From positions 28,137 to 92,136 of the forward strand of contig JBBRLJ010000023.1 of the NCBI GenBank assembly GCA_038231435.1: a stretch of DNA of 64,000 nucleotides, given 5' to 3'. Position numbers and translations under genes: made by a program. This DNA comes from Planctomycetota bacterium. Its GTDB lineage: Bacteria; Planctomycetota; UBA11346. Under the pieces are notes generated by a model. It saw only the letters and a list, made by a program, of their open reading frames with translations, ran no database searches and was not told where the DNA came from. Within the stretch, counting starts at the first letter, position 1. Each line of letters begins with the position of its first letter. Shown here in pieces: positions 11,820 to 64,000 of this stretch.

Positions 11820-11952
11820 AGGGGCTCCGCCCCTACGGCCCTGTCGGGCCTACCCCACGGGCTTTGTCGGGGCTCGATGTCTTCGCTGCGCTGCGACATC
11901 GTGGGCGGATGGGCTACGCCCATTCTATCCGCCCACCGCCCCTCGGCGCCCG
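11820..11952 (+). repeat. Structured dispersed repeat, copy A1
   Basis: GGGGCTCCGCCCCTAC...CCCCACGGGCTTTGTCG...CTCGGCGCCCG; also at 11965, 14731, 48765, 48935 (inverted), 49064 and 63827. Confidence 0.95.
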
Positions 11953-11964
11953 CGCTTGTATTTT

Positions 11965-12121
11965 CAGGGGCTTCGCCCCTACGGCCCGGTGTCCCCCTTC
12001 GGGGAGGCTTCGCGCGGCCTACCCCACGGGCTTTGTCGGGGCACGATGTCTTCGCTACGCTGCGACATCGTGGGCGGATGGGCTACGCCCATTCTATCCG
12101 CCCACCGCCCCTCGGCGCCCG
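11965..12121 (+). repeat. Structured dispersed repeat, copy A2 (tandem)
   Basis: Near-identical to A1 with an extra hairpin (CCCCCTTCGGGGAGG) in the linker. Confidence 0.95.
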
Positions 12122-12148
12122 CCCCATCGCTACGATGGGGCCCTTTTT
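12121..12148 (+). terminator. Intrinsic terminator
   Basis: GCCCCATCG-cta-CGATGGGGC followed by TTTTT. Confidence 0.7.
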
Positions 12149-13480: not shown

Positions 13481-14755
13481 ATGACTCCGCCACGCACACC
13501 CGCTCGCATCAAGCCCAGCTCCCACCTCGCGGACGTCCGCTATGAGATCCGCGGCCCATTGGCCCGGCGCGCCCTCGAGCTCGAGAAGGCCGGCTTCGAG
13601 ATCATCAAGCTCAACATCGGCAATCCCGGCGCGTTCGGCTTCGCGATGCCCGAGAGCATGCGTCGCGCGATGATCGACAACCTTCCCGCTTCCGAGCCCT
13701 ACTGCCATCAGAAGGGCATCTTCCCCGCCCGCGAGGCGGTGGCGATGCAGCAGCAGGCGCGCGGAGTGCGCGACGTGACTGCCGACGACGTGTTCATCGG
13801 CAATGGCGTGAGCGAGCTGATCATGATCGCGCTGCGCGGGCTGCTCGAGGATGGCGATGAGGTGCTGGTCCCCAGCCCCGACTATCCCCTGTGGACCGCG
13901 GCAGTGACCATCAACGGCGCGAAGGCCGTGCACTATCCGTGCCCACGCGAGACCGGCTTCATCCCCGACATCGAGGCGCTGCGCGCGCTGGTGACGCCGC
14001 GCACGCGCGCGCTGGTCATCATCACGCCCAACAATCCCACCGGCGCGGTGTATCCTCGCAAGCTACTCGAGCAGATGGTTGCGCTCGCCGAGGAGCATCA
14101 GCTGGTGGTGTTCTCGGACGAGATCTACGACCAGATCCTCTACGAGGGCGCCGAGCACGTGCCGGTGGCGACGCTGGTGAAGAACACCCTGTGCGGGACC
14201 TTTGGCGGGCTGTCCAAGGTCTACCGCGCCTGTGGCATCCGCGTGGGCTGGCTGGTGTTCAGCGGCGAGCGCAGCCAAGCGAACGACTACATGCTGGCGC
14301 TCGATCTGCTCGCGAGCCTGCGCTTGTGCGCGAACGTGCCCGGTCAATGGGCGGTACAGACCGCGCTCGGTGGCCATCAGAGCATCCTCGAGCTCACCGC
14401 TCCCGGTGGCCGGCTCTTCCAGACGCGCAAGGCGGTGATCGATGCCGCGAAGCGCAGCAAGTACCTCGAGGTGGCGATCCCGAAGGGAGCCATCTACGCC
14501 TTCCCGCGGGTCAAGCCGGGAACCATCCGCGATTTCGACGACAAGCGCTTCGCGCTCGACCTGCTCGAGCGCAAGCACGTTCTGGTCGCGCCGGGCACGA
14601 GCTTCAACGTCCCGTACCGCGATTCGTTCCGCATCACCCTGCTTCCCGACGAGCAGGTGATGGCCGACGTGTTCCGTCGCATCGAGGGACTGCTCGATGA
14701 GTACTGTTTGTCCGCTGCAGAGCAGCGGGCCAGGGGCTCCGCCCCTACGGCCTAG
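13481..14755 (+). CDS. alaA: Alanine aminotransferase (class I/II PLP enzyme)
   Basis: VRYEIRGP, LNIGNP, GNGVSELI, DYPLWTAA, PNNPTGAVY, DEIYD and GLSKVYRACGIRVGW. Confidence 0.92.
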   Translation: MTPPRTPARIKPSSHLADVRYEIRGPLARRALELEKAGFEIIKLNIGNPGAFGFAMPESMRRAMIDNLPASEPYCHQKGIFPAREAVAMQQQARGVRDVTADDVFIGNGVSELIMIALRGLLEDGDEVLVPSPDYPLWTAAVTINGAKAVHYPCPRETGFIPDIEALRALVTPRTRALVIITPNNPTGAVYPRKLLEQMVALAEEHQLVVFSDEIYDQILYEGAEHVPVATLVKNTLCGTFGGLSKVYRACGIRVGWLVFSGERSQANDYMLALDLLASLRLCANVPGQWAVQTALGGHQSILELTAPGGRLFQTRKAVIDAAKRSKYLEVAIPKGAIYAFPRVKPGTIRDFDDKRFALDLLERKHVLVAPGTSFNVPYRDSFRITLLPDEQVMADVFRRIEGLLDEYCLSAAEQRARGSAPTA

Positions 14756-14861
14756 CGGCCTACCCCACGGGCTTTGTCGTGGCTCGTTTTCACCGTTCCG
14801 GTGAAAACGAGGGCGGATGGGCTTCGCCCACCGCCACTCGGCGCCCGGTCGCTGCGCTCCG
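14731..14861 (+). repeat. Structured dispersed repeat, copy B (overlaps the alaA 3' end)
   Basis: Same invariant core; substituted hairpin CGTTTTCACCG-ttc-CGGTGAAAACG; TGGC/GCCA compensatory pair. Confidence 0.9.
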
Positions 14862-16619: not shown

Positions 16620-16645
16620 CATGATCCCGGGACAGGGGGTCGGCC

Positions 16646-17492: not shown

Positions 17493-20042
17493 TCAGCGTA
17501 TGCGCCGCCGCGCGAAGCTCGCGGCGAACGCCAGCAGCACGATCGCCAATCCGCCCATGCCGCATTTGCCGCTTCCGTCGCTTGAGGTGAAAGCTGCCGA
17601 GGGCGCGTAATCCACCGAGGTCGACTGGGCGGTGTTGCCATTGTTCGCGGCATCGAAGGTCGTGTTCGGGGGCAGCGAGAAGGTCACGGCTCCAGGGCTG
17701 ATCGGCGTCACGGTGATGATGAAGGTGTTGCCCGGCCCGGCGGTGATCGAATCGATGACGCCGTTGCCGACGATGAACGACGATGCGCTGACCGCCGACA
17801 CCGGCTCTGAAAAGCCGAGCGTGACGGTGAATGGCGAGGTGGTCACGGTGGCGGCGCTGACGGTGATGATCGGCGGCACGGTATCGTAGATCATCACGCC
17901 ATGCGCGGTGATGTTGGGATGGCCGTTCGGGCCGACGGCATCGCCTCCCGCCAGATCGACGGTGACCGGACCGTTGGCGCTAGGGGTCACGTCCAGGCTG
18001 TAGACCGCTCCAGAGCCGCTGAAGGCACTCGCGACGCCGTTGCCGACCACGATGTCGCTCGCGTCGAAGCCGATCATGGCGGCGGCGAAGGTGAAGGTGA
18101 AGGTGATCGGCGATTGGTTGGTGGCGGTCCCGGTGGGCGTCACCGCCACGGAGTAGGCCAGGCTGTCCATCGTGGCGCCCACGCTGGCGGCTGGCGACAG
18201 GTTGCCCGCCAGGTCGGTCGACGTGCCAGCGGACATGCCCACGCTGACTGCGCCGTTGGCGGTGGGCGTGATGTCGATGGTGTAGACGCTGCCGCTGCCC
18301 GCGAGGGGGCCCTTGGTGCCGTTGGTGACGTTCACGTCCGCCGCGGTGAATCCGGTCACCGGCTCGGAAAAGGTGAAGGTATAGGTGTATGGGCTGCCAT
18401 TGAGGATGGCGTTTACCGGGGTGATTGCGACCGTGGGCGGGGTGCGATCGCTGATGATCGAGACGCCGGTCGCGAGCACGCCATTGCCGACCAGATCGGT
18501 AGTCGAATCGGCTCCGACCGTGACCGTGACCGGCCCGTCGGCGGTCGGCGCCACGGCCAGGGTATAGGTGGTGCCACTGCCGGCGAATACTCCAGCGGTG
18601 CCATTCGCGACCGTCACGCCCGACGCGGCGAAGCTGGTGATCGGCTCGGCGAAGGTGAATGTGAAGGTCACCGTGTTGGCGTTGGTGGAGATGCCGGCCG
18701 GCGTGATGGTGACCACCGGCGGAGTGCGGTCGCTGGTCACCGATGCAGATGCGCCGGCCGCGAGCGCATTGCCGGCGAGATCGGTGCACGCGGCCGCGGC
18801 CGTGCTGACGCTGACCACGCCGTCGGCGGCCGGAACCACCTGCAGGGTGTACGACGCTCCGCTGCCGGTGAGCGCGCCCGTGGTGCCATTGGTCACGGTG
18901 ACATCGCTGGCGGTGAAGCCGGTGACCGCTTCGTTGAAGGTGAAGACGAAGGGGATCGGGCTGAGGTTGTTAGCGCCGGAATTGGGCGAGATGGCCACGG
19001 TTGGTGGCGTGCGATCGCTGATCACCGAGGCCGAGCCCGCGAGATTGCCGTTTCCGAAGGAGTTCAGGGCGGCGTTCGCGGCCACCGAGACCGACACCGT
19101 CCCATCCGCGGCCGGGGCCACGTCCAGCGAATAGATCGAGCCGGTGACGCTGGCGAACGCCCCGGCGGTGCCGCCGCTGACCGCGATGTCGGCGAGCGTG
19201 AAGCCGGTGACATCTTCGCCGAAATTGAAGAGGAAGGAGATGGGCGATGCGTTGGTGCGCAGTCCGCTCGGGGTGATGGTCAGGTGCGGCGTGCGCACGG
19301 GAAAGATGAAGACGCCCGGTTGCCCGATGTTGCTCTGATTGACCAGATCGAGCATCTGCGCCTGGTTGCCGGACTGGGGAAACTCGTAGAAATTCACACC
19401 GTTACCCGATGAATACCCGGCTCGCGCGTGCACGCCGCCGCTCGCGTCGCCGGTGGTCCACTGCAAGGCCTCGTAACGGAATTCGATGTCGAAGTCCCCA
19501 TTGCCGCGATCGAGCAGGCGGATCTGGAAGGCGTCCTGCAGATCGTCGTGCATGCTGTAGTAGCCGACGTCATCCCAGGTGAAGGTGATGACGCGATTGG
19601 CCGCATCGAAATCGTAGTAGACGAGATTGGTGCCCATCGATGTGCCGCCAGGGGTCTGGATGAACGGAGGACCGTTGCCGCCAGCCCGGGTATCCACATC
19701 GGCGTAGAATGCGGCGATGATCGGCAGCGAGGTGGCGCCATCGATGGCGTCGGGAACGAAACTGCCTGAACCAGCACCGAAGGTCAGGTTGCCGTTGTTG
19801 TTCACGAACACGTCGGTGTAGGTCGTGCCGAAGAACCTGATGCCGGATGGGAACACCGAGGTCAGCGACACCGCCTGGAAGCTGTCGTCGTTGCGCAGCA
19901 GCTGGCCCTCGCCGAAGCCAGCCGGACCGCCCAACCCAGTGACCAGCGCCGAGGCTGCCGAGGCCGTGCTCCCGCAGCAGCAGACGAGTGCTAGGCACAT
20001 GCCGACGATGAAACGGGATAGGGGCGAGCGCACGTGAGCCAT
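17493..20042 (-). CDS. Surface protein: nidogen-like (NIDO) domain, six bacterial Ig-like repeats and a C-terminal CGxG/TM/basic anchor
   Basis: Signal peptide; FVNNNGNLTF, IAAFYADVDTR, FDIEFRY; six ~95-aa repeats (FSEPVTGF...DRTPP); ends GKCGMGGLAIVLLAFAASFARRRIR; start uncertain. Confidence 0.88.
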   Translation of the reverse strand: MAHVRSPLSRFIVGMCLALVCCCGSTASAASALVTGLGGPAGFGEGQLLRNDDSFQAVSLTSVFPSGIRFFGTTYTDVFVNNNGNLTFGAGSGSFVPDAIDGATSLPIIAAFYADVDTRAGGNGPPFIQTPGGTSMGTNLVYYDFDAANRVITFTWDDVGYYSMHDDLQDAFQIRLLDRGNGDFDIEFRYEALQWTTGDASGGVHARAGYSSGNGVNFYEFPQSGNQAQMLDLVNQSNIGQPGVFIFPVRTPHLTITPSGLRTNASPISFLFNFGEDVTGFTLADIAVSGGTAGAFASVTGSIYSLDVAPAADGTVSVSVAANAALNSFGNGNLAGSASVISDRTPPTVAISPNSGANNLSPIPFVFTFNEAVTGFTASDVTVTNGTTGALTGSGASYTLQVVPAADGVVSVSTAAAACTDLAGNALAAGASASVTSDRTPPVVTITPAGISTNANTVTFTFTFAEPITSFAASGVTVANGTAGVFAGSGTTYTLAVAPTADGPVTVTVGADSTTDLVGNGVLATGVSIISDRTPPTVAITPVNAILNGSPYTYTFTFSEPVTGFTAADVNVTNGTKGPLAGSGSVYTIDITPTANGAVSVGMSAGTSTDLAGNLSPAASVGATMDSLAYSVAVTPTGTATNQSPITFTFTFAAAMIGFDASDIVVGNGVASAFSGSGAVYSLDVTPSANGPVTVDLAGGDAVGPNGHPNITAHGVMIYDTVPPIITVSAATVTTSPFTVTLGFSEPVSAVSASSFIVGNGVIDSITAGPGNTFIITVTPISPGAVTFSLPPNTTFDAANNGNTAQSTSVDYAPSAAFTSSDGSGKCGMGGLAIVLLAFAASFARRRIR

Positions 20043-48609: not shown

Positions 48610-48666
48610 ACCGTGGCCGGAGCGCCCTGGACGCGTGTCCCTGGGCGATCACGATGGGTGGATCAT

Positions 48667-48753
48667 GGAGGGGTGGCAGAGCGGCTGATTGCGGCGGTTT
48701 TGAAAACCGCTGGACCTGAAAGGGTCCCGGGGGTTCGAATCCCTCCTCCTCCG
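48667..48753 (+). tRNA. tRNA-Ser(TGA), CCA not encoded
   Basis: GGAGGGG/CTCCTCC acceptor, GCGGT-TT-TGA-AA-ACCGC anticodon arm, long variable arm, GGTTCGAATCC, G discriminator. Confidence 0.97.
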
Positions 48754-48764
48754 TACTTTTTTTT

Positions 48765-48925
48765 CAGGGGCTTCGCCCCTACGGCCCGGTGGGCCTACCC
48801 CACGGGCTTTGTCGGGGCTCGATGTCTTCGCTGCGCTGCGACATCGTCGGCGGATCGGCTCCGCCGATTGTATCCGCCGACCGCCCCTCGGCGCCCGGTC
48901 GCTGCGCTCCGGGTTTGAGGCGGCC
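48765..48925 (+). repeat. Structured dispersed repeat, copy C1
   Basis: Full core plus GTCGCTGCGCTCCGGGTTTGAGGCGGCC tail. Confidence 0.95.
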
Positions 48926-48934
48926 GTGTCGCTG

Positions 48935-49055
48935 CGGCCGCCGAGTCCTGGTTTGCGTGAACAATGGGCGTAGCCCATCACGCAAACTTTCTGGCCGCCC
49001 GGCGGACAGAAAGAAGGACGACAAAGGCCGTGGGGGCTCGGGGGCGAAGCCCCCG
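48935..49055 (-). repeat. Structured dispersed repeat, inverted and highly diverged copy
   Basis: Reverse strand reads GGGGCTTCGCCCC..CCCCA-CGGCC-TTTGTCG-TCCT...AGGA-CTCGGC-GGCCG. Confidence 0.85.
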
Positions 49056-49063
49056 CACAAAAA

Positions 49064-49197
49064 GGCCTACCCCACGGGCTTTGTCGGGGCTCGATGTCTT
49101 CGCTGCACTGCGACATCGTCGGCGGATCGGCTCCGCCGATTGTATCCGCCGACCGCCCCTCGGCGCCCGGTCGCTGCGCTCCGGGTTTGAGGCGGCC
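49064..49197 (+). repeat. Structured dispersed repeat, copy C2
   Basis: Near-identical to C1 but lacks the first hairpin. Confidence 0.95.
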
Positions 49198-53117: not shown

Positions 53118-54259
53118 ACAAGGTCAAACCGTATCTGTTCTGGATCGTCTGCGGCATCATCCTGCTGGTCGAGATCGTCGTGGTGCTGGTCATCTCTCCG
53201 AACGGAAAGGGCGACAAGTCCGCCGAGGATGTGAAGAAGGAGCTCGACGCTGACAACAAGAAGCTGACCCTGCTCTTCGACCGCGCATCTCAAGGCTCGC
53301 CGAGCGGCGAATTCGATGCCGAGAACAAGGATCACATCGCCCAGCTCACCACCAAGTGGCTGCCGGCGCCGAGCTGGAAGAGCGTGCTCGAGAGCCACGT
53401 GCAGAAATACCGCGTCCAGACCGGGACCATCCAGGGATACCTCGCCCACCGCAGCGAATTCCTGCACCGCACGATCTCGAGCGAGCGCGATCCGCATGCC
53501 TGGTACACCCAGTACCAGACCGTCACCGCCGATCTGCTGCAGAAGCTCTACGATGACCAGTGCCTGGTCCTACCGGTGATCACCGGCGCTGGCGCCGCGG
53601 CGGCCACGGCCGAGCAGGGCGATGCTCCCGACTTCGCGAAGAAGCGCGAGCTGCGCCAGATCGCCGGATTCGTGACCACGACCAACTATCCCGAGCAGGG
53701 CGAATGGCCCAAGCTGACCGTGCGCTTCCACGTGATGGAGATGATCGCCGATGCGCTGCATCGCAGCAAGGGCACCAACGAAGTCTCGGCGGCCGTGCCA
53801 CTGAAGACCCCGTTCGAGGCGCATGCCCAGCTGGTCGGCATCACCTGGAAGGAGGACAGCGAGGACATCGTCGGATACCAGCTGACCCTGCAGGGCCCGA
53901 TCTCGTCGATCCTGTCCGCGGAAGCGGCGCTCGAGGAGAACGTCGACGACGGTAAGCCGATCTCGGTGGTCAGCGGCGCGACCCTCGGCCGCAAGACCTT
54001 CGCCGCGGGCGAGCGTCGCGACATCACCTCCGAGCCGGTGGTGCTCAAGCTCACCGCGGGCGTGCTCGACTACTCGAATCTGAACGCCAGCGGAAACGCG
54101 AACGGAACGGGCGGCAATGCCGGCGCCCAGGGCACTCAACCGCTCGCCCAACCGCAAGCCCAGCCGCAGACGCTGCCACAGGGCGCTCCGCCCGCGCCGC
54201 GCTCGCCGCCCGCCGGGCCGCCCGCGAACCGTCAGGCAGAAGCCCTGGGAGAACAGTGA
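53114..54259 (+). CDS. Bitopic membrane protein in the PilO position
   Basis: GTG overlaps the pilM stop; N-terminal TM + coiled coil; YQLTLQGPISSIL resembles PilO ferredoxin-like strands; Pro/Gln tail. Confidence 0.75.
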   Translation: MNKVKPYLFWIVCGIILLVEIVVVLVISPNGKGDKSAEDVKKELDADNKKLTLLFDRASQGSPSGEFDAENKDHIAQLTTKWLPAPSWKSVLESHVQKYRVQTGTIQGYLAHRSEFLHRTISSERDPHAWYTQYQTVTADLLQKLYDDQCLVLPVITGAGAAAATAEQGDAPDFAKKRELRQIAGFVTTTNYPEQGEWPKLTVRFHVMEMIADALHRSKGTNEVSAAVPLKTPFEAHAQLVGITWKEDSEDIVGYQLTLQGPISSILSAEAALEENVDDGKPISVVSGATLGRKTFAAGERRDITSEPVVLKLTAGVLDYSNLNASGNANGTGGNAGAQGTQPLAQPQAQPQTLPQGAPPAPRSPPAGPPANRQAEALGEQ

Positions 54260-56115
54260 TGGATCCCAAGCATCTCATGCTCGCTCACGGCGAGAAAGCC
54301 GTCGTGCTGATCGTTGCCGGGCTCTGTGCCTGGAAGCTGATCGCGGTGTTCACCAACGACGAGATCCGCCCCGGCACCACCCAGCAGGCCACCTCGGATC
54401 GCATCGCGGTGATCGCGAAGGTCATGGACTCGAAGGACGTGCCGAGCCTGAAGGCTCCCCCGACCTATCTCGAGGACATGAAGGCGCGCTTCAACCGCGA
54501 GCTGCCCCGGGCCGTGCGTCCGTCATGGATCTTCAGCCATACCGACATCGGCGGCGGCGCGAGCGGCACGTTCTACTACATCTACGAGTTGAACGCGCCC
54601 GCGGTGGTGCCGAAGGACAACATCGGCACCATCGAGGTGGTCGTCTCGCCGCCCAAGGTGGGCACCGGCTCCGAGCGCCGGTCGTCGGAGTGGGAGAAGC
54701 AGTGGACGCGCACCACCGAGAAGACCATCCTGAACTCGGCCAAGGTCGCCGGTGTCCAGGTCGAGATGAAGGTCGGCGAGGGCCAGTGGCGCCCGCTGAA
54801 GGCGCCCGGCGTGCTCGCCGAGGGCTTCATCCCGCTCGAAACCCTGAAGAAGAGCGAGAAATTCACCTTCCCGACCCAGGCGGTCTGGGAACGGCACTAC
54901 TTCCGCGCCCGCACCATCCTCAAGGCCACGGGCTACACCGGCGAGGACAAGGATGCCGACGAGACCGTGCTGGTGCACAACGGGCAGATCGACGAGCCCG
55001 ACTGGAAGATCTTCGGCGAGCAGATGAAGGCCAGCCCCGAGATGTTGACGAACGAATTCATGGCTGGCGCCAAGCAGGCCGTCCCGGGCGTCGACCTGAA
55101 GAAGGGCGAGCTGCTCTACTACAGCAACGACTGCGACATCGCCTGGATCAACGCCACCTCCGACATCCGCTTCGCCTTCGAGAAGTCGCTGACCGATCCG
55201 TCGGACCCGAGCAAGGAGAGCGCCAGCGTCCTGCTCTCGAAGCAGTTCAAGCGTCCGACCGGTAACGTGTGGCTCGACAAGCCCGAGGTGTTCAAGGTCG
55301 AGAAGGACGACGTCATCGGCGGCAAGCGCAACCTCAAGCCCCCTGGCGAGGACAAGCTCAAGGAAGTCGACCTCACGACTCCGTTCCAGCTCGTCGACAT
55401 CAAGCACGGCATCGAGCGCATCTGGTACTACGAAGTGAAGGCCAAGGCGCGCACCGACGGCGCCAAGGGCAAGGAGCTGTACTTCGAACCGGTCAAGAAG
55501 CAGACCGACGTGGCGGTGCTCAAGAACAGCAAGACCGGCGTGGTGGTCGAGATGACCAAGCTGGCGAAGATCACCAAGCCGAACCGCTCGCTCACCGGCA
55601 AGACCTTCCCGGTGTTCTATCCCATGTTCCCTGGCGACTTCTACGACGAGGAAGACGAGTTCCGCAAGAGCCCCAGCGAATTCCAGCAGTGGGGGCTGAT
55701 CCCGCCGACCCCGATCATGCACGACAAGGACACCGGTCCGCTCGAGGACCTGCGCCTGAATCCTCCCGGCAACGGCGTGTACAAGACCGACACCGCCTAC
55801 ATCGAGCTGCCTGACGGCAGGCTGATCTGGTGGGAGCCGATCAACAAGGAGATCGCGATCTACCCCGAGCCGAAGGCCGACGCCAAGGGTCCGGCCCTGC
55901 CGCCGCCGCGCCTGAACGGTCCCAAGAACGGCCCCAAGGCGGTGACCCCGCCGAAGACGCCGAAGGCAGTCGCGCCTCCGCGCCAGCCGCCTCCGGGCGC
56001 CTACCCGCCCGGCGCCGGCGGACCGCCTCCGGGCGCTGGCGGACCGCCTCCTGGCGCCGGCGGCTATCCGCAGGGTGGGCCCAACGGCGGCGGCGCCGCA
56101 CCGCGTCACCCATGA
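54259..56115 (+). CDS. Large bitopic periplasmic beta-rich protein in the PilP position, Pro/Gly-rich tail
   Basis: HGEK + TM N-terminus; FN3-like segment (RHYFRARTIL); PPPGAGG repeats; coupled to the previous gene. Confidence 0.8.
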   Translation: MDPKHLMLAHGEKAVVLIVAGLCAWKLIAVFTNDEIRPGTTQQATSDRIAVIAKVMDSKDVPSLKAPPTYLEDMKARFNRELPRAVRPSWIFSHTDIGGGASGTFYYIYELNAPAVVPKDNIGTIEVVVSPPKVGTGSERRSSEWEKQWTRTTEKTILNSAKVAGVQVEMKVGEGQWRPLKAPGVLAEGFIPLETLKKSEKFTFPTQAVWERHYFRARTILKATGYTGEDKDADETVLVHNGQIDEPDWKIFGEQMKASPEMLTNEFMAGAKQAVPGVDLKKGELLYYSNDCDIAWINATSDIRFAFEKSLTDPSDPSKESASVLLSKQFKRPTGNVWLDKPEVFKVEKDDVIGGKRNLKPPGEDKLKEVDLTTPFQLVDIKHGIERIWYYEVKAKARTDGAKGKELYFEPVKKQTDVAVLKNSKTGVVVEMTKLAKITKPNRSLTGKTFPVFYPMFPGDFYDEEDEFRKSPSEFQQWGLIPPTPIMHDKDTGPLEDLRLNPPGNGVYKTDTAYIELPDGRLIWWEPINKEIAIYPEPKADAKGPALPPPRLNGPKNGPKAVTPPKTPKAVAPPRQPPPGAYPPGAGGPPPGAGGPPPGAGGYPQGGPNGGGAAPRHP

Positions 56116-56298: not shown

Positions 56299-58839
56299 AT
56301 GCGTAGTGCGAAAACCCGCTCCCTCACCCCCATGATGGTCGCCATCCTGGCCTTGCCCGTCGTCGGCCTGTCGGCCGCCGAGCAGGGCGCCGGAGATCAA
56401 GGCGCTGGAGGTCAGGGCGGAGGAGAAGCCAAGGGCGCGGCCCAGGCGCTGAACGACTACGCCGCGCAAGGCGGCGGAGGCGCCGCCACCAATGAGCAGA
56501 TGCAGGCCGAGGCGCGCTACCGCGAGGCCTACTCCGAATACCGCAAGGCCCACTTCGCCGAGGCGAAGAAGCTGGTCGAAGCGGCGTTGCGCGCGAACCC
56601 CGCCCACCAGGGCGCCCAGCGCCTGCGCGACGACATCCTCGCCGTGCTCGGCGAGCGCGGCAATTCGCTGCAGATGGCTGCCACCTGGTTCAAGTCGCTG
56701 CAGGACGTGCGCACCCAGGAGTTGGCGGTCAGGCTCGACGCGCTGATGACCAGCGGCGACCAGAAGATGGCCGCCGGCGACTACGATGGCGCCGAGCTCG
56801 ACTACGATCGCGTCGAGGTTGGTCTGCGCAGCTTCCCGTACGAATTCGACTGGGGCAACCTGCCCGAGCAGGTCGCCGGCAAGCGCCTCGAGGCGCGAGC
56901 GGAATCCCGCCAGGCGCGCGAGCAGCACGCCGAGCAGGCTCGCGATCTCGCGAAGGTCCGCGCCCACGAGCAGGCCGATCTCCAGGAAGAGGCGCTGCGC
57001 TCCAAGGTCGATGAGCTGGTCCGCCGCGCGAAGGTCTCGTACGACCGCAAGGACTACAAGCGCGCCGAGGTCGACGCGTGGAACGCCTACGAGCTCGACC
57101 GCCGCCGCGAGGACGCGCGCAAGCTCTACCTGGCCGCCCGCCGTGAAGGCCACATCGAGTTCGACGACCGCTATCGCGAGGAGCGCCTCGAGCGCCTCGC
57201 GCGGGTGAACGAGGAGATCCACAAGTCGCTGATCCCGCAGTCCGAAATCCTGGTCTATCCCGAGGACTGGCAGCGCCGCGCGCTGCGCCGTCCGCGCGAG
57301 ATCGGCAACCAGAAGGTCGAGAGCTGGATGGCCGACCTGACCAAGCGCATGGACCAGCGCGTGACCTTCGAATTCTCCGATCAGGGGTTCGAGGACGTCG
57401 TCACCTTCCTGCGCCAGGTCACCGGCGTGAACATCATCGTCGCTCCCGAAGTGACGGCCGCCGGCGGCGGCGGCACGGTAACGCTCAAGGTCAAGGACAT
57501 GCGCTTCGGCGACGCGCTGAAGTGGATCCTCGAGCTGACCAACCTGCACATGGCGATGCAGGAGCAGGCCATCTACATCTCCAACAAGGCGGTCACCGGT
57601 TCGATCGTGCTGCGCATGTACGACGTCACCGACCTGATCTCGCCGGTGAAGGATTTCCCGGGCCGCGAGCTGGCATACAACGCTGGCGGCGGCGGCGGCG
57701 GCAGTGGCATCCAGATGTTCCAGGCTGCGGCCACCGAGGACAGCAAGTCCACCGATCCGCAGGAGCTGGTCGACTTCATCCGCAAGAACGTCGATCCGAA
57801 GAGCTGGGACGCTGAAGGCGCCGGCATCGATCAGCGCTCGGGCTCGACCTTGTTCGTCAGCCAGACGCCCGAGGTCCACAACCAGCTCGAGCAGCTGCTG
57901 TCGAACCTGCGCAACCAGCAGTCCCTGCAGGTCAGCGTCAACGTCCGGCTGCTCGATGTGCGCAAGAATTTCTTTGAGGAGATCGGCGTCTCGTACATCG
58001 ATCCCATGGTTCCCGCGAACATGGACCTGCTCAACAGCACCTCGAAGCTGGCCCCCGGGCCCGGCCGCGGCTACCTGCGTGAGAACAACACCATCAGCTA
58101 CCAGGGCGACGTCCACAACGAGCAGCTGCCCGCGAACTCGACGCAGGCGGCCTACAACGCCTTCGGCGGCATCATCCCGCGCGGCCTCTATGTCGAATCC
58201 TCGCACAGCCCCTTCAACTTCCTGAACGCCGACCAGATCAACGCGGTGTTCTCGGCGGTCGAGGAAGAGAACGATCTGCAGGTCCTGCAGCATCCGGTGA
58301 TCACCTGCTTCAACGGCAAGCGCGCGAACGCCGCGTTCATGAACCAGTACGCCTACATCGCGGACTACGACGTGGTCAGCTCCACCCTGGATCCCAAGAT
58401 CCAGGTGCTGACCTTCGGCAACATCCTCGACGTGCTGCCGGTGGTGAGCTCGGACCACAAGTACATCACCATGGAGATCAGGCCCGCGTCCGTGCTGCTG
58501 CAGGGCGTGTTCACTGAGATCCTGGCGGCTCCGCGCATCGTCGCGACCGGCAATGGCGCGTTCCTGCTCGGTACCTTCCAGTATCCGCTCGAGCTGCCGA
58601 ACGTCCTGGTGCGGACCATGCGCTCCTCGGTCATGCTGCCCGACAAGGGCTCGCTCCTGATCGGCGGTTTCCAGCACAGCCTGCGCCAGCGCACCCACAT
58701 CGGGGTGCCGTTCCTGAGCCACATCCCGTTCCTGGGCCGCCTGTTCAGCCGCAACGGCGTGTACGACGAGAACCATCGCCTGTTCATGCTGCTCAACGCC
58801 GAGGTCATCGACCTCAAAGAGAAAGAATCCCAGCAGTGA
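56299..58839 (+). CDS. Secretin paralogue 1 (TPR/helical N-terminus, N0/N3 domains, secretin domain)
   Basis: GAGGAG RBS; signal peptide; RVTFEFSDQGFEDVV, LFVSQTPEVHNQLEQLL and GVPFLSHIPFLGRLFS. Confidence 0.9.
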   Translation: MRSAKTRSLTPMMVAILALPVVGLSAAEQGAGDQGAGGQGGGEAKGAAQALNDYAAQGGGGAATNEQMQAEARYREAYSEYRKAHFAEAKKLVEAALRANPAHQGAQRLRDDILAVLGERGNSLQMAATWFKSLQDVRTQELAVRLDALMTSGDQKMAAGDYDGAELDYDRVEVGLRSFPYEFDWGNLPEQVAGKRLEARAESRQAREQHAEQARDLAKVRAHEQADLQEEALRSKVDELVRRAKVSYDRKDYKRAEVDAWNAYELDRRREDARKLYLAARREGHIEFDDRYREERLERLARVNEEIHKSLIPQSEILVYPEDWQRRALRRPREIGNQKVESWMADLTKRMDQRVTFEFSDQGFEDVVTFLRQVTGVNIIVAPEVTAAGGGGTVTLKVKDMRFGDALKWILELTNLHMAMQEQAIYISNKAVTGSIVLRMYDVTDLISPVKDFPGRELAYNAGGGGGGSGIQMFQAAATEDSKSTDPQELVDFIRKNVDPKSWDAEGAGIDQRSGSTLFVSQTPEVHNQLEQLLSNLRNQQSLQVSVNVRLLDVRKNFFEEIGVSYIDPMVPANMDLLNSTSKLAPGPGRGYLRENNTISYQGDVHNEQLPANSTQAAYNAFGGIIPRGLYVESSHSPFNFLNADQINAVFSAVEEENDLQVLQHPVITCFNGKRANAAFMNQYAYIADYDVVSSTLDPKIQVLTFGNILDVLPVVSSDHKYITMEIRPASVLLQGVFTEILAAPRIVATGNGAFLLGTFQYPLELPNVLVRTMRSSVMLPDKGSLLIGGFQHSLRQRTHIGVPFLSHIPFLGRLFSRNGVYDENHRLFMLLNAEVIDLKEKESQQ

Positions 58840-61268
58840 CCGGACGCCGGAACGTCGGCCGCGGCCAGGGCGCCGCGCGAAATGCCGGGCGGTGCGTAAG
58901 CACCCGCCGCGGCATCTTCGCGCGCTCCGCCGTGCTCGCGCTGTGCGCTTCCGCGGCGTTCTCAGAAACCGCGCCGGAATCCCTCCCCGACGCGTCGATC
59001 CAGGCCTCGGCCCTGGTCGCCCAGGCCCGCCATGAACGCGAGGCCGGCCGGCTCGAGAAGGCGCGCGAATTGTGCCGGCGCGCCATCGATCTGGCCCCTG
59101 GCGACGCCTCCGCGCGCGGAGAGTTGGCGCGCATCGATTCCACCGCCGCCGGCAAGGATGCCGGAGCGACGCCTTCCCAGGTCAAGCCCGACGCCGCGCT
59201 CAAGGTGCAGCTGGTGCTCTCGGAAGCGCGCGTCGCCGCCGATCGCGCCGAACTGCTCGCCGCCGACGGCCGCAATGCCGAGGCCCGGACCCAGCTCGAG
59301 CCGGCGATCGCGGCGCTCGTCCAGCTCGATGCCGAGCTGCCGCCCGAAGCGCGCCAAGAGCTCGCGCGGCTGCGCGGACTCGAGGATGCCTACCATCAGG
59401 CCGCCGACGCCGCCCGCGTCGAGAGCGTCCGCGCCGACCGCGACCAGTCCCTCGCACAGGCGCACGAACATTCCGATCGCGACCAGGCGATGCATCGCAG
59501 CGTCTACCAGGAGCGCCTGGCCCGCGTCATCGCGATCAAGAATCGCGGCCACCTCGAAGTGGCCCTCTCCACCTGCCGCGCGCTGGTGGTCGAGTACCCG
59601 AGCGAGCCTGAAGCCGAGAAGCTGTTCCAGGAAATCCTCGAGGCGGTGCACAAACAGCGTCGGCTGACGCTCGACGAGCGCGGCCGCGAGCTCAAGAAGG
59701 AAGTCCTCGAGCGCATCGAGAAGTCGCTGATCCCCGATGGCTTCGACGGCATGCCGGTGTTCCCGGACGATTTTCTCACGCGCCACTCCCATGCCTACGG
59801 GCTCGAGTTCGTGCCCGACATCCCGCCGTGGCGCGAGGCCATCCTCGACCGCCTATCGAAGCGCGTCAGCGTGGATTTCGACGCGCAGAACGGCGTCGAG
59901 GCGCTGAATGCGCTCGCCCGCCAGGCCGGCCTCAACCTGGTGATCGACCCGCAGCTCCAGGCTGGCGCCGAACGCACGGTGACGCTCAAGGCCAGCAACA
60001 TCCAGCTCGATCACGCGCTCAATTGGCTGACCAAGCTGATGGATACCACCTGGTCGATCACCAAGGGAGCCGTGTACATCGGCGGCACCGAGGAGGTCGA
60101 GCCCGTGCTCGCCATCCACGACGTATCGGTGATGGTGTTCCAGGGCCAGGATCATCCAGGCAAGATCATCGCCTTCTCGTCCGCCGGCGCGGCCGGCGGC
60201 GCCGGGCTCTTCCAGGACGCCGCGACCGACGAGAAGAAGATCACGCCCGAGGACGTCGTCGATCTGATGCAGAAGGCCGTCAGCCCGCTGACCTGGAAGA
60301 ATCCCGCCTACGGGATCACCATCCGCGGCACCACGCTCTTCGTCACCGCTCCAGCGAACGTCCACAAGCTCATCGACGAATTCATCCGCGCCCAGGAGCA
60401 CATGCAGAATGTGCTGGTCAAGGTGGATGCGCGCTGGCTCGAGATCGACGACGGCTTCATCGAGGAGATCGGCGTCAACTGGGGCAACCTCGCCAGCATC
60501 AGCCAACTGGTCACCCCGCACCAGCCCGCCGGGCTGTTCCGCGAGAACACCGACATCCAGTACAACGGCACCAACACCAACCAGCTGCCGGCCACGCAGG
60601 TGTTCATCCAGCCGGCGACTCTCAATAGCGGCCTGACCCTGTCGGGAGCGATGCTGCGCAATACCGAGCTGTCGTCGGTCATCACCGCGGTCGAGCGCAA
60701 CAGCCGCGGCCGCGTGCTCGCCTCGCCGTCGATCACCACGCTCAACGGCGTCCGCTCGGGCTGCTTCTTCGGCTCGCAGATGGCCTACATCGCCGACTAC
60801 GACGTCGTCTCGTCGACCCTCGACCCGAAGATCCAGGTCCTGACCGTTGGCGCCAGCCTGACCATCAAGCCGATGGTGAGCGCAGACCGCAAGTACGTGA
60901 CCATGGATTTCCGTCCCGGCCTCGCGTCGGTCCGCCTGTTCACCGAGATCCTCTCGGCGCCGCGCTTCATCACCGCAGGCAACGCCACCGGCTTCATCGG
61001 CATCTTCCAATATCCGATCGAACTGCCGAACATCGAGATCAAGGAATCGTCCACCACCATCCAGGTGCCCGACCAGGGCTCGCTGCTGGTGGGCGGCTTC
61101 GGCAAGAACATCGATCAGGAAATGGCCGAACGCGTGCCCTTCCTCGGCAACATCCCTTTCATCGGCAGGCTCTTCGGCAAGCGCGGACGCTATTCAGACC
61201 GCGCGAAGCTGTACCTGCTGGCCACCGTGAACATCATCAATTACGACGAACTGGAGACCACGCTGTGA
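58836..61268 (+). CDS. Secretin paralogue 2
   Basis: Same architecture; VLASPSITTLNG and RVPFLGNIPFIGRLFG; GTGA overlap with paralogue 1. Confidence 0.9.
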   Translation: MTGRRNVGRGQGAARNAGRCVSTRRGIFARSAVLALCASAAFSETAPESLPDASIQASALVAQARHEREAGRLEKARELCRRAIDLAPGDASARGELARIDSTAAGKDAGATPSQVKPDAALKVQLVLSEARVAADRAELLAADGRNAEARTQLEPAIAALVQLDAELPPEARQELARLRGLEDAYHQAADAARVESVRADRDQSLAQAHEHSDRDQAMHRSVYQERLARVIAIKNRGHLEVALSTCRALVVEYPSEPEAEKLFQEILEAVHKQRRLTLDERGRELKKEVLERIEKSLIPDGFDGMPVFPDDFLTRHSHAYGLEFVPDIPPWREAILDRLSKRVSVDFDAQNGVEALNALARQAGLNLVIDPQLQAGAERTVTLKASNIQLDHALNWLTKLMDTTWSITKGAVYIGGTEEVEPVLAIHDVSVMVFQGQDHPGKIIAFSSAGAAGGAGLFQDAATDEKKITPEDVVDLMQKAVSPLTWKNPAYGITIRGTTLFVTAPANVHKLIDEFIRAQEHMQNVLVKVDARWLEIDDGFIEEIGVNWGNLASISQLVTPHQPAGLFRENTDIQYNGTNTNQLPATQVFIQPATLNSGLTLSGAMLRNTELSSVITAVERNSRGRVLASPSITTLNGVRSGCFFGSQMAYIADYDVVSSTLDPKIQVLTVGASLTIKPMVSADRKYVTMDFRPGLASVRLFTEILSAPRFITAGNATGFIGIFQYPIELPNIEIKESSTTIQVPDQGSLLVGGFGKNIDQEMAERVPFLGNIPFIGRLFGKRGRYSDRAKLYLLATVNIINYDELETTL

Positions 61269-63823
61269 ATTCCCACCGAGGGTCCGCCTGCCGCCTGACC
61301 ACCATGACCCTGGCCATGATGGCCGCCTGCTCCTTCGCTTACGGCGAAGACGGCGGAGGCAAGCCGGCTCCCGCCGGAGGCGAGCTCGACAGCTCCGCCG
61401 ACCACCGCGGCAAGAACGAGCAGAAGGCCGAAGGCCTGTACGTCCAGGCGATGCGCGCCAAGGATGAGGGCCGCGTTGACGACGCGGTGAGCCTGATGGA
61501 TCAAGCCGTCGCGCTCCAGCCCAATAGCCAGCGCTACCGCAAGGCCTCGGAAGACATCCGCGCCATGGCGGGCGTCAACAAGGACGCTCGCAGCGTCACC
61601 ATCGACAGAGCCGCCGACGTCCTCTTCGTCAAGCAGCAGCAGCTGTGGGTCGAGGCCGAGGCCAAGGCCGACGAAGGCCAGAAGCACATGGAGGCCGGCC
61701 AGTACGACGAGGCCGAGCGCGATTTCCAGATGGCGGCCACCCGCCTCGAGACCCTGCCCTTCGCCGATGACCGCAAGGAGCCGGAGCTGCGCCGCGTCCA
61801 GGGCCTGCGTAACGAGGCGCAGACCCGCCGCGAAGCCGCCGAGCAGCAGACCGCCGCCGACCGCAACCAGGCAGCTTCCAGCCGCCAGCAGGAGCTGCGG
61901 GACATGAGCCTGCAGATCGAGCGCGACCGCATCGACGCGATGCTCAATCGTGCCGAGCGCGCGCGCGAACGCCGCGATTTCGACGAGGCGATCCTGCTCT
62001 GCGAGCAGGTGCTCAAGATCAACCGCGCCGAGGACCGTGCCAGCAGCCTGCTGGTCAAGTGCCGCCGCGAGCGCCACGTCTACCTGCGCCAGATGACCGC
62101 CGACCGCTGGGACGAGGAGCACAAGCTGCTCAGCGAGCAGATCCGCACCGCGATGCTGCCGCAGATGGAGATCCTCCGCTATACCGCCGATTGGGCCGAA
62201 CTCGACGCGCGGCGCACCGCGCCCACGCGCGGCCTCGAGGAGGAGAACGAGACCTGGCGCAAGACCGTCAACGACCAGCTCGAGCAGGAGGTCACGCTCG
62301 ACTTCCAGGACAGCGATCTCGCCGATGTCGTGCAGTTCCTGCAGCGCATCACCAGCGTCAACATCGTGCTCGATCCTCAGGTCATCGCCACGAGCCCGCC
62401 GCCGGTGACGCTCAAGGTCGACCGCATGAAGTTGCGCTACGTGCTCGACTTCATCATGCGCCTGAGCGGCCTCAACTACGTACTGCGCGACGAGGCCATC
62501 TTCATCTCGAACAACGAGGGCGTGCGCGGCGACGTGTACATGAAGCTGTACGACGTGCGCGATCTCACGCACGCCATGCAGAGCTTCCCCGGACCGGATC
62601 TCGACATTCCCGAACCGGGCGGCCAGGGCGCCAAGTTGCTGCCCCCGGTCGAGCCAGAGAGCAAGCCCGAGACCGGCGAGTTCATCGACATCATCAAGAA
62701 GGTCGTGACTCCGAACCTGTGGACCCGCGAGGGCACCGGCATCGAGGAGTACAACGGTGCGATGGTCATCACCCAGACTGGCGACGTGCACAAGCAGGTC
62801 GAAGAACTGCTACGCGCGCTGCGCAACCAGAAGGGCACGCAGATCCATGTGAAGGTGCGGTTCCTCGAGGTCGAGAACGCAGCGCTCGAGGAGATCGGCG
62901 TCGACTGGAACAACTACACCGGCCCGCGCGCGGCTGGAGCGCTCGGCCGTCCGCCGCTACCGCAGCAGAACCCGGCCTCGACCAGCACCCTGGGTGCGTA
63001 CTACGGCGACCGTCCGAACAACGTGATCACCGCCGCCGCGCTGAACAACCAGTTGCAGCCGTACCAGACGGCGAATTCGCTGACGTACCTGAACAACGGC
63101 ACGCAGGGGATGAACTTCCAGACCCAGACCTGGCAGGTGAATTCGAACTGGTACGCCTCGGCGGTGCTGCACGCCGTCGAGCAGGAGCGCCGCGGCAACG
63201 TGGTGTTCGAGCCCGATCTGACGATGTTCAATGGCCAGCAGGGCCACATCGTGCATATGAACCAGCAGTCCTACATCGCCGACTACGACGTCGTCCAGGG
63301 CCAGTACGATCCGATCATCACGGTGCTGTCGTACGGCACCGTGCTCGACGTGCAGGCCATTGCCTCGGCGGACAAGAAGTACATCACGCTCACCCTGCGG
63401 CCGACCAATGCCCAGGTGGTGCGCTGGCGCCGCTTCGGTCCGCTGAACACCGGCAGCTTTCCAGGCGGCCCGGTGGTGGCCGGCGGCAATCCGCCGGTCG
63501 GCGCGAACAACCAGCCCGGCGTGCAGCAGCCGCCCAACCAGGCTGCCCCGGCCGTGGCGAACAACAACCCGCTGCTGATCCCCGAGCTGAAGTACGAATC
63601 CGTGCGCACCTCGGTGACCATCCCCGACGGCGGATCGCTGGTGATCGCCGGCATGACCAACGGCGAAAGCGCGCGCTCGCACTCGGGCATCCCGTTCCTG
63701 AGCCACATCCCGTTCCTCGGGCGGTTGTTCAGCACCAACGGCCGCCAGGAGACAGAAAAGCGCACGCTCATCATCGTCGAAGCCGACGTGGTGCTGTTCG
63801 AGGAGATCGAGAAGAACTTGTAG
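61265..63823 (+). CDS. Secretin paralogue 3
   Basis: Same architecture; SVTIPDGGSLVIAG and GIPFLSHIPFLGRLFS; GTGA overlap with paralogue 2. Confidence 0.9.
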   Translation: MNSHRGSACRLTTMTLAMMAACSFAYGEDGGGKPAPAGGELDSSADHRGKNEQKAEGLYVQAMRAKDEGRVDDAVSLMDQAVALQPNSQRYRKASEDIRAMAGVNKDARSVTIDRAADVLFVKQQQLWVEAEAKADEGQKHMEAGQYDEAERDFQMAATRLETLPFADDRKEPELRRVQGLRNEAQTRREAAEQQTAADRNQAASSRQQELRDMSLQIERDRIDAMLNRAERARERRDFDEAILLCEQVLKINRAEDRASSLLVKCRRERHVYLRQMTADRWDEEHKLLSEQIRTAMLPQMEILRYTADWAELDARRTAPTRGLEEENETWRKTVNDQLEQEVTLDFQDSDLADVVQFLQRITSVNIVLDPQVIATSPPPVTLKVDRMKLRYVLDFIMRLSGLNYVLRDEAIFISNNEGVRGDVYMKLYDVRDLTHAMQSFPGPDLDIPEPGGQGAKLLPPVEPESKPETGEFIDIIKKVVTPNLWTREGTGIEEYNGAMVITQTGDVHKQVEELLRALRNQKGTQIHVKVRFLEVENAALEEIGVDWNNYTGPRAAGALGRPPLPQQNPASTSTLGAYYGDRPNNVITAAALNNQLQPYQTANSLTYLNNGTQGMNFQTQTWQVNSNWYASAVLHAVEQERRGNVVFEPDLTMFNGQQGHIVHMNQQSYIADYDVVQGQYDPIITVLSYGTVLDVQAIASADKKYITLTLRPTNAQVVRWRRFGPLNTGSFPGGPVVAGGNPPVGANNQPGVQQPPNQAAPAVANNNPLLIPELKYESVRTSVTIPDGGSLVIAGMTNGESARSHSGIPFLSHIPFLGRLFSTNGRQETEKRTLIIVEADVVLFEEIEKNL

Positions 63824-63826
63824 TTT

Positions 63827-64000
63827 CAGGGGCTCTGCCCCTACGGTCCGGTGGGCCTACCCCCCGGGCTTTGTCGGAGCTCGATGTGGCCGGCGGCGAC
63901 GCCGGCCACATCGTCGGCGGATCGGCTCCGCCGATTGTATCCGCCGACCGCCCCTCGGCGCCCGGCTGTTTTCATTCAGGGGCTGTGCCCCTACGGCCCG
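63827..64000 (+). repeat. Structured dispersed repeat, copy D1 (63827-63964) and start of D2 (63977 to window end)
   Basis: Core with variant hairpin CGATGTGGCCGGC...GCCGGCCACATCG, 3 bp after the secretin 3 stop. Confidence 0.93.

What the first reader, a model, noticed from the sequence alone, without database searches (positions are those of the whole stretch)
11820..64000. Dispersed multi-stem repeat with strong covariation: candidate new structured RNA or ssDNA element
Seen: seven full or near-full copies plus one fragment share the layout hairpin GGGGC-3 nt-GCCCC, then CCCCA-[P1]-TTTGTCG-[P2]-T-[variable hairpin P3]-[P4 enclosing hairpin P5]-CC-[P2']-CTCGGC-[P1']. Stems change while pairing is kept. 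P1 is CGGGC/GCCCG or CGGCC/GGCCG. P2 is GGGC/GCCC, TGGC/GCCA or TCCT/AGGA. P3 has four different sequences. P4 is TGGGCGGA/TCCGCCCA, TCGGCGGA/TCCGCCGA or TTTGCGTGA/TCACGCAAA. P5 is TGGGCTACGCCCA or TCGGCTCCGCCGA. TTTGTCG, CC and CTCGGC are invariant (D1 has CCCCC and one P2 mismatch; B lost the P4 3' arm). Clusters sit directly 3' of plus-strand genes (GNAT, alaA, tRNA-Ser, secretin 3). The first hairpin reads GTAGGGGC... on the reverse strand, like GTAG-type REPs mobilised by HUH/RAYT transposases, but the branched core is more complex than a simple REP. Inference: a non-autonomous mobile element or ncRNA under selection for a specific fold.
Basis: partly seen in the sequence, partly recalled or inferred. 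Interest (0 to 1): 0.85.

Follow-up and report, generated by a model that had tools for sequence, protein, structure and literature searches.

The report
Folded single-stranded DNA repeat at gene-ends
A roughly 150-base repeat sits in hundreds of copies right behind stop codons and tRNA genes in one family of uncultured Planctomycetota; its stems change sequence while keeping their pairing, and its loops and mismatches mark it as likely a folded single strand of DNA, not an RNA, that likely spreads as a small selfish element whose moving enzyme was not found.

Summary
Observation confirmed: seven copies plus a fragment in the window, 262 anchors at 165 loci in the genome, matches in 36 of 48 genomes of the family and 0 of 143 other Planctomycetota searched. 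Covariation is overwhelming (28 of 32 pairs; 461 double-sided changes). The fold belongs to the strand antisense to the upstream gene and looks like DNA: C(GNA)G triloops, tandem G-A mismatches, almost no wobble, and a mirror-covarying G-box that would form a purine-motif triplex like BoxC/PIT. The same hairpin-plus-G-box module is common in small circular ssDNA viruses, on the packaged strand. The element is mobile: 10 of 10 orthologous sites lack it; it has a sharp C|T left end, a ragged right end, head-to-tail arrays, no target duplication. 125 of 170 outer copies lie within 20 nt of a same-sense stop codon. No cognate RAYT, IS91, TnpB, reverse transcriptase or Rep was found. Best reading: a non-autonomous ssDNA-intermediate repeat (REP/BoxC kind) with an unusually elaborate fold. 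The scan met this family before in another genome (e1-1517914); the DNA-strand, triplex, virus-module and targeting results are added here.

The parts
11811..11952 (+). Copy A1 (type A), 1 nt after the GNAT stop codon: T-rich linker 11811-11820, leading hairpin H0 11821-11833, hairpin H1 11837-11850, C-box 11853-11856, branched core 11858-11952. The folding strand is inferred to be the minus strand.
11953..12141 (+). Copy A2, head-to-tail with A1: linker and H0 11953-11979, altered H1, C-box 12022-12025, core 12027-12121, terminal hairpin P6 12121-12141
14705..14861 (+). Copy B: joined at C14704|T14705 inside the last codons of the aminotransferase gene, whose stop now lies in H1 (14753-14755); H0 14733-14745, core 14768-14847 with the P4 3' arm deleted, P6 14845-14861. 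Site empty in two congeners.
48757..48911 (+). Copy C1 (type A), 2 nt after tRNA-Ser (48666-48754): linker 48757-48766, H0 48767-48779, H1, C-box 48798-48801, core 48803-48897, P6 48895-48911
48935..49062 (-). Copy C2 (type B, no H1), inverted: core 48935-49030, C-box 49031-49035, H0 49040-49054, linker 49055-49062
49064..49183 (+). Copy C3 (type A, own H0 lost): C-box 49070-49073, core 49075-49169, P6 49167-49183; 99% identical to C1 over 134 nt
63824..63964 (+). Copy D1, directly after the stop codon of the third secretin gene: H0 63829-63841, C-box 63860-63864, core 63865-63964
63965..64000 (+). Fragment D2: linker, H0 63979-63991 and start of H1; the contig ends here
48808..48892 (-). Invariant internal loop (example copy C1): 48808-48814 opposite 48887-48892; on the minus strand GCCGAG faces CGACAAA, with one covarying G-C pair next to P2 followed by a predicted tandem G-A pair
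49031..49054 (+). Predicted intrastrand triplex cap (example copy C2, read on the window's plus strand): G-box, 3-nt spacer, G-run, C(GAA)G triloop, C-run

Best explanation
The repeat is a mobile, gene-less element of about 150 bases whose antisense strand likely folds as single-stranded DNA (a predicted triplex cap, an invariant internal loop and a three-way junction) and which is likely copied to new sites through that folded strand by an unidentified nicking-joining (HUH-type) enzyme acting in trans. Shown: the fold's pairings, their strand-specific DNA-type loops, lineage-specific presence, a sharp left junction at C|T, a ragged right end, head-to-tail arrays, no target duplication. Inferred: (1) the folded strand is the substrate that a protein reads by shape plus the invariant loop; (2) rolling-circle-like copying makes the arrays and the ragged end; (3) the sharp end comes to rest against stop codons and tRNA ends because it joins to, or deletes up to, C|T sites and only products that spare the gene survive; T-starting linkers that restore a synonymous last codon and a stop are the tolerated products.
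For: Covariation: 93.5% of 2540 cells paired, 28 of 32 pairs with double-sided changes, 0 of 500 shuffles reach it, slid controls 37-52%; P2, P3 and P4 were not in the search patterns and have 33, 42 and 20 distinct arms. DNA-type fold: 504 of 961 triloop hairpins read GNA on the minus strand, 494 closed by C-G, against 58 on the plus strand and 5.8% background; only GNA of all 64 triloops forms the stable DNA mini-hairpin and an RNA counterpart is far weaker (PMC13037366, passages); 203 of 269 internal P3 mismatches are G-A on the minus strand, 53 of 55 tandems are 5'-GA/GA; wobble 12 (plus) and 25 (minus) of 2318 pairs against 98 of 1204 in tRNAs (rough count). Triplex: C-box length follows the H0 arm (rho 0.59 and 0.36), mirror T changes in 2 of 2 against 0 of 46 type-B variants and 9 of 17 against 2 of 53 in the longer class; purine-motif triplexes do not form in RNA (PMC4666352, passage). 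The module has 89 hits in viral contigs against 13 with the loop flipped and 0 reversed; 40 of the 80 listed are under 6 kb. Mobility: 10 of 10 sites with an orthologue (22 rows) lack the core; copy number runs from 0 to the 83 scored within genera; about 15 head-to-tail copies at one locus of G006; C precedes the linker in 135 of 178; flanks share no duplicated word (4.27 against 4.35 shuffled); no copy inside a called gene.
Against: No cognate enzyme found. G000's only Y1 is a subclass 2.3 protein with its own terminal repeats, found in 46 of 48 family genomes including element-free ones and missing from G019, which has a variant; 1 of 45 Y1 loci holds a copy; no Y2, Rep_trans or TnpB hit; one HUH Rep only in G000. 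No lagging-strand bias (98:97 by a GC-skew proxy), unlike IS200/IS605. The C|T junction is on the strand opposite the folded one. The C before the linker is also 56% (87 of 155) in control tracts, so part of it is method bias. Few copies are very young (4 of 210 have an identical distant partner). Triplex stems are only 4-6 triads and the mirror changes come from few lineages. Counts are of related sequences; no phylogenetic correction. In an anellovirus the conserved hairpins were not needed for replication initiation (PMC12772153, passage).
Confidence: 0.5

Rival explanations
1. Same folded ssDNA element, but inserted directly at transcript ends by host machinery: past a stop codon or a tRNA end the naked transcript would form an R-loop, the displaced sense strand (or the RNA 3' end) would pair with the element's A-rich tail and prime copying; no dedicated transposase.
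For: Orientation follows transcription (26 sense against 7 antisense in codirectional spacers, p 0.001), not replication; 125 of 170 outer copies within 20 nt of a same-sense stop although only 672 of about 7,900 free intergenic or stop-side T-rich tracts lie there; in 25 convergent spacers the left gap has median -4 nt, the right 31 nt; 4 of 57 ARAGORN tRNA calls have a copy 0-2 nt behind them; no enzyme found.
Against: Leftward deletion plus selection predicts the same pattern; native tails were lost, not displaced, at the sites inspected; no direct evidence of R-loops or priming.
Confidence: 0.2
2. A structured RNA in the 3' untranslated region (stabiliser, terminator or translation modulator) kept by host selection and spread by gene conversion.
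For: Sense orientation and stop-codon adjacency put the plus strand in transcripts; E. coli REPs within 15 nt of a stop are reported to affect translation (PMC12306157, passages).
Against: Plus-strand loops are pyrimidine TNC and mismatches C-T; no wobble excess; sites are not conserved between congeners; neighbours are unrelated genes; no Rfam match. A secondary effect on the mRNA stays possible.
Confidence: 0.1
3. A canonical GTAG REP/BIME family mobilised by a RAYT that is missing from these incomplete assemblies.
For: Type A reads GTAG plus hairpin twice on the minus strand; extragenic, clustered, near stops, targeted by IS elements, as REPs are (PMC3733652, PMC6006769, passages); G000 is 88% complete and the repeat breaks contigs.
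Against: GTAG is absent from type B and from 103 of 125 copies in other genomes; no REPtron among 45 Y1 loci, including a 40-contig genome; the unit is a 150-nt branched fold, not a 20-40-nt palindrome.
Confidence: 0.12
4. A retro-element: the plus-strand RNA is reverse transcribed into the folded minus-strand DNA, which template-jumps onto transcript ends.
For: Polarity, A-rich tail of the minus strand and ragged other end fit.
Against: No RVT_1 hit in the copy-rich G000, G002, G020, G079 and G080; hits in copy-free G022, G008, G023, G067 and G071; 0 of 20 RT loci carry a copy.
Confidence: 0.05

Closest known systems
GTAG REP / BIME / REPIN elements with RAYT (TnpA-REP) (PMC3733652, PMC6006769, PMC3116915; passages read)
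   Same: Extragenic, hundreds of copies, clusters and tandem arrays, close to stop codons, lineage-specific, hairpins, no target duplication, targeted by IS elements.
   Different: No conserved GTAG guide, no flanked RAYT found, unit about 150 nt with a three-way junction and an invariant internal loop, stems free in sequence, mainly head-to-tail rather than inverted doublets, strict polarity to the upstream gene.
BoxC / PIT / TMECO intrastrand triplex repeats (PMC4666352; abstract and passages read)
   Same: G/C-rich hairpin plus mirror box across a 3-nt spacer, intergenic, multi-copy, purine-motif triplex, linked to local rearrangement.
   Different: TMECO is class II with 9-nt stems and no strand bias; here class I order (box first), 4-6-nt stems, a GNA triloop, strong orientation bias, and a large folded core attached. 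TMECO consensus absent from G000.
GC-rich hairpins in non-coding regions of small circular ssDNA viruses (anellovirus palindrome in PMC3819664; CRESS, microvirus and inovirus-type contigs)
   Same: Same G-box, spacer, G-run, C(GNA)G, C-run module; it lies on the packaged strand in 10 of 10 anellovirus contigs (negative sense, PMC12772153) and on the gene-sense strand in 3 microvirus and 3 inovirus-type records (packaged strand recalled).
   Different: The viruses lack the branched core (0 hits; 2 chance hits); likeness may be convergence; its role in the viruses is unsettled.
IS200/IS605 ends, TnpA-Y1 class 3 atypical REPs, IS91/Helitron-type rolling-circle elements (PMC6006769; rolling-circle features recalled)
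   Same: ssDNA substrate read by shape; one sharp and one ragged end; concatemers; class 3 occurs in Planctomycetes with atypical structures.
   Different: No TnpA, TnpB or Y2 gene tied to it; no lagging-strand bias; the class 3 structure table in the supplement was not seen (a search for taxon names gave 0 hits).
Bacterial MITEs (Correia, ERIC, RUP, BOX; recalled)
   Same: Non-autonomous, about 100-200 nt, folded, beside coding ends.
   Different: No terminal inverted repeats, no target duplication.

Membership tests
GTAG REP / RAYT system | GT(A/G)G tetranucleotide at the hairpin foot in all members | tested here: not met
   143 of 245 copies in G000, 22 of 125 elsewhere
GTAG REP / RAYT system | RAYT gene flanked by the repeat (REPtron) | tested here: not met
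   1 of 45 Y1 loci carries one copy, 330 nt upstream of a subclass 2.3 gene at the end of the neighbouring gene; assemblies incomplete
GTAG REP / RAYT system | Extragenic, high copy, clustered | tested here: met
   262 anchors, 165 loci, 0 inside called genes
GTAG REP / RAYT system | Cleavage and joining by the enzyme on ssDNA | not testable with these tools
   needs biochemistry
BoxC/PIT/TMECO triplex repeats | Mirror third strand with compensatory change | tested here: met
   few independent lineages
BoxC/PIT/TMECO triplex repeats | TMECO consensus, class II, 9-nt stems | tested here: not met
   0 matches in G000; class I order, 4-6 triads
BoxC/PIT/TMECO triplex repeats | Triplex forms in vitro | not testable with these tools
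   needs CD, NMR or DMS footprinting
MITE | Target-site duplication | tested here: not met
   48 single loci, 4.27 against 4.35 shuffled
MITE | Terminal inverted repeats | tested here: not met
   ends are unlike: T-rich linker left, variable P6 right
Described structured RNA (Rfam 15) | Match to a covariance model | tested here: not met
   only tRNA at gathering; best chance hits under 20 bits
Structured RNA in general | G-U wobble tolerated, RNA tetraloops | tested here: not met
Structured RNA in general | Expressed as a stable RNA | tested here: inconclusive
   no RNA run to test
IS200/IS605 or IS91 derivative | Parent element with TnpA/TnpB or Y2 transposase sharing the ends | tested here: not met
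   the Y2 control rang nowhere, so that blank is weak
Retron/RT-linked repeat | Reverse transcriptase linked to or tracking the repeat | tested here: not met

The most novel reading that the evidence does not exclude
A natural, protein-free DNA device: a selfish single-stranded DNA mini-element with a conserved tertiary fold (triplex cap shared with ssDNA virus genomes, G-A zippers, invariant loop as binding or catalytic site) that amplifies by rolling circle and homes to the ends of transcription units using only host proteins, or its own chemistry.
Probability: 0.15. Interest if true: 0.9.

Novelty: new variant of a known kind. Interest (0 to 1): 0.62.

Why it matters
Natural DNA folds with this depth of covariation are rare: several helices, an invariant loop and a likely triplex are all constrained on one strand. 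The family gives hundreds of natural variants for testing how ssDNA structure is selected in cells, links a bacterial repeat to a module used by unrelated ssDNA viruses, and poses a clear question: how a repeat reaches stop codons and tRNA ends with fixed polarity without a known RAYT. It rewrites C-termini of host proteins and serves as a landing site for two insertion sequences.

Tried and rejected
Rfam. Y1 transposases: one in G000; 23 handles searched (several are the same genome reached twice); 45 loci scanned, one chance-level copy. Y2/IS91, TnpB domain, Rep_trans, REP_ORF2-G2P (115, 121: G000 only), reverse transcriptase. Recurrent neighbour genes around 115 element-like loci: none mobile; genes flanked on both sides in G000 and around low-copy or arrayed loci in relatives are ordinary (output partly cut). 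Replication-strand bias: none. Stop codons built into linkers: not enriched in internal linkers (17 of 60 against 15.2), enriched in outer ones (85 of 172 against 49). Folding energy does not separate DNA from RNA: the minus strand is lower in 72 of 80 (RNA) and 73 of 80 (DNA). Plasmid and phage BLAST: only short hits. Sequencing runs: no RNA holder listed; contigs of four DNA runs showed no informative joint across a copy among the rows displayed. Ribozyme cores (hammerhead, hairpin) compared from memory only; no likeness seen. Literature searches found no description of this family; subscription journals are largely not covered.
Full report
Observation. A covariance model built here finds exactly these seven in the window at 69-110 bits; the next hit is 12 bits. 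The upstream features are a GNAT gene, a class I/II aminotransferase, tRNA-Ser and a secretin. Rfam has nothing for the repeat.

Extent. The window ends contig C23 of a 5.2-Mb, 88% complete genome. A strict anchor finds 262 copies at 165 loci, none inside genes called by my own codon model; looser variants exist. Type A (165) has an extra hairpin H1, type B (97) does not. A metagenome scan gave 99 loci, 68 with the right-hand anchor. The model matches 36 of 48 genomes of the family (at most 83 candidates scored each; single-copy hits may be misbinned contigs, as one in G064 that repeats a G000 locus) and 0 of 143 genomes of other families (26 candidates scored each). An AT-rich relative, G019, has a shorter variant without P5.

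Fold. From 148 distinct copies, 96 remained after removing near-duplicates and I aligned 80, leaving out 16 with indels or shifted P1. On the named structure 93.5% of 2540 cells pair, 28 of 32 pairs show double-sided changes, no shuffle reaches this and slid controls pair 37-52%. The loop motifs, part of P1 and P5 were in the search patterns, so their conservation is partly built in; P2, P3 and P4 were not and have 33, 42 and 20 distinct arms, 21, 35 and 15 with a perfect partner. The core is P1, internal loop, P2, then a three-way junction with P3 and a bulged P4/P5 arm. The loop's G-C pair next to P2 covaries in five copies. No phylogenetic correction was possible.

Strand and molecule. Of 961 triloop hairpins in G000 copies, 504 read GNA on the element's minus strand (494 closed by C-G), 58 on the plus strand; background is 5.8%. 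A review reports that of 64 triloops only GNA forms the very stable DNA mini-hairpin, that an RNA counterpart is far weaker, and that such hairpins occur at ssDNA phage origins (PMC13037366, passages). Internal P3 mismatches are G-A on the minus strand in 203 of 269 cases, and 53 of 55 tandems are 5'-GA/GA. Wobble is no commoner than other mismatches on either strand: 12 and 25 of 2318 pairs, against about 98 of 1204 in tRNA drawings of this genome. Computed energies favour the minus strand under both RNA and DNA parameters and do not decide. I infer a DNA fold on the strand antisense to the upstream gene.

Triplex cap. The C-box behind the leading hairpin mirrors the hairpin's C-run. Its length follows the arm (rho 0.59 for 196 longer, 0.36 for 97 shorter variants). 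Where the stem has an A-T pair the box has the mirror T (2 of 2 against 0 of 46; 9 of 17 against 2 of 53; not significant in the shorter class, 3 of 9 against 11 of 86; the common CCCCTA form does not mirror its T). Mirror compensation is the classic test for triplexes (PMC11667243, passages). On the minus strand this is a class I purine-motif intrastrand triplex, a type said not to form in RNA; the known repeats of this kind are BoxC/PIT/TMECO (PMC4666352, abstract and passages). Stems here are only 4-6 triads, so stability is unproven.

Virus link. The module alone has 89 exact hits in viral contigs, 13 with the loop flipped and 0 reversed (that control was typed one G short, so it is laxer). 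Forty of the 80 listed contigs are under 6 kb. Pfam on 58 ORFs chosen from the small contigs names CRESS Rep in 9 loci (one below cut-off), anellovirus ORF1 in 10, inovirus-type Rep in 3 and microvirus capsid in 2; a further microvirus came from BLAST. The GNA form is antisense to ORF1 in 10 of 10 anelloviruses, which package the negative strand (PMC12772153, passage), and gene-sense in the microvirus and inovirus-type records (their packaged strand is recalled). The same palindrome is printed for a TTMV genome (PMC3819664, passage). Against an origin role, the conserved hairpins of one anellovirus were dispensable for initiation. The branched core is not in viruses or plasmids.

Mobility and ends. 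Of 30 outer copies tested, 10 had an orthologous gene end in congeners; all 22 rows lack the core, though one G001 spacer keeps half a leading hairpin and one G002 spacer has a different hairpin-plus-box repeat. The left end is sharp: C, then an 8-9-nt T-rich, C-poor linker, then CAG or CGG and H0; C precedes the linker in 135 of 178 copies, against 87 of 155 control tracts. The right end is ragged and often runs into a new linker and H0. G006 has about 15 head-to-tail units at one locus. There is no target duplication. Nearest distant partners are at least 95% alike for 58 of 210 copies and identical for 4: spread is old and continuing slowly.

Position. 125 of 170 outer copies with an upstream gene lie within 20 nt of a same-sense stop; codirectional spacers hold 26 sense, 7 antisense and 9 mixed loci; there is no leading/lagging bias by a GC-skew proxy (98:97). 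T-richness does not explain it: 672 of about 7,900 free intergenic or stop-side T-rich tracts are at sense stops. Where the linker overlaps the gene end, the last codon ends in T in 59% of 85 genes against 8% of 3650, and TAG rises from 20% to 48%; orthologues show the same residues with C- or G-ending codons. Internal linkers are not stop-rich, outer ones are. This fits an element-derived, T-starting linker whose junctions survive only when they leave a synonymous codon and a stop. Four of 57 ARAGORN tRNA calls (some spurious) have a copy 0-2 nt behind them, as do tRNAs in G016, G013 and G024. Direct targeting of transcript ends and leftward deletion plus selection both fit; I could not separate them.

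Enzyme. Not found. G000's only Y1 has the features of subclass 2.3, described without REPs (PMC6006769, passages and Background); it has its own terminal repeats and occurs in 46 of 48 family genomes regardless of copy number. The model finds 1 copy in 45 Y1 loci and 0 in 20 RT loci. RT does not track copy number. Y2, TnpB and Rep_trans give nothing; an inovirus-type Rep exists only in G000. All these genomes are incomplete and the repeat breaks contigs, so a flanked gene could be missing. The supplement of PMC6006769 was only searched for taxon names (0 hits); its class 3 structures may bear on novelty.

Verdict. A real, family-wide, non-autonomous repeat that works like REP/BIME and BoxC elements but fails their membership tests (no conserved GTAG, no REPtron, not TMECO, no MITE ends). 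I commit at 0.5 to spread through a folded ssDNA intermediate by an unidentified HUH-type enzyme; that it is mobile (about 0.9) and that the constrained fold is DNA on the antisense strand (about 0.8) are firmer. Six literature searches found no description. New variant of a known kind; interest 0.62.

Noticed in passing
G000 contig ends C6, C7, C8, C11, C18, C20, C60, C64, C70, C85: Ten ends of one IS (terminal GGTTCTTCACG; ISL3-like by a recalled C-terminal motif, not scanned) all sit at the P3/P4 junction of type-B copies with an apparent 8-bp duplication; the other 5 of 15 motif hits are unrelated.
   Followed up: partly
G079 loci L412-L420; L145, L166, L172: A second IS-like end is joined exactly before CTTTGTCG of the invariant loop in 9 of 9 copies in G079 and in three metagenome loci; transposase not assembled, family unknown (IS110-like is a guess).
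   Followed up: partly
G000:C43:18360-23820 (L524, L525:9360-14820): An island bounded by dif-like direct repeats (label recalled) holds an inovirus-type HUH Rep, an HTH regulator and a row of AT-rich small genes separated by attC-like GCCTAAC...GTTAGGC sites, with no integrase seen: a Xer-integrated element carrying integron-like cassettes.
   Followed up: partly
L001 (G000:C28:21759-24935): Subclass 2.3 Y1 gene, a class described without flanking structures, here lies between short terminal inverted repeats, next to a phage integrase and two tRNAs.
   Followed up: partly
G000 C4:85152, C9:94750, C17, C1, C11: Other repeat families share the hairpin-plus-C-box cap with different bodies; one also starts at C|T inside the end of tRNA-Leu.
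   Followed up: no
window 14705-14755: The insertion replaced the aminotransferase's native tail with 16 new codons read through the element.
   Followed up: yes
window 56332-63823: Three secretin genes in tandem behind a PilM-type cluster (51300-56115).
   Followed up: no
window 62890-62972: ARAGORN's tRNA-Trp lies antisense inside the secretin gene and has no Rfam support; probably spurious.
   Followed up: partly
window 18292-19057: Three ~285-nt repeats inside a long minus-strand ORF (17493-19934), probably repeated surface-protein domains.
   Followed up: no
L476, L433, L451 (viral contigs): The hairpin-plus-G-box module lies beside reverse transcriptase genes (Pfam hit for L476 and L451), possibly diversity-generating retroelements.
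   Followed up: no
G000 C81, C101: Two MobA/MobL-like relaxase fragments on small contigs (motif recognised from memory).
   Followed up: no
alignment A1 columns 65-66, 80-81, 85-86: A conserved AT can pair with either of two downstream ATs, so the P4/P5 boundary may slide between two states.
   Followed up: no
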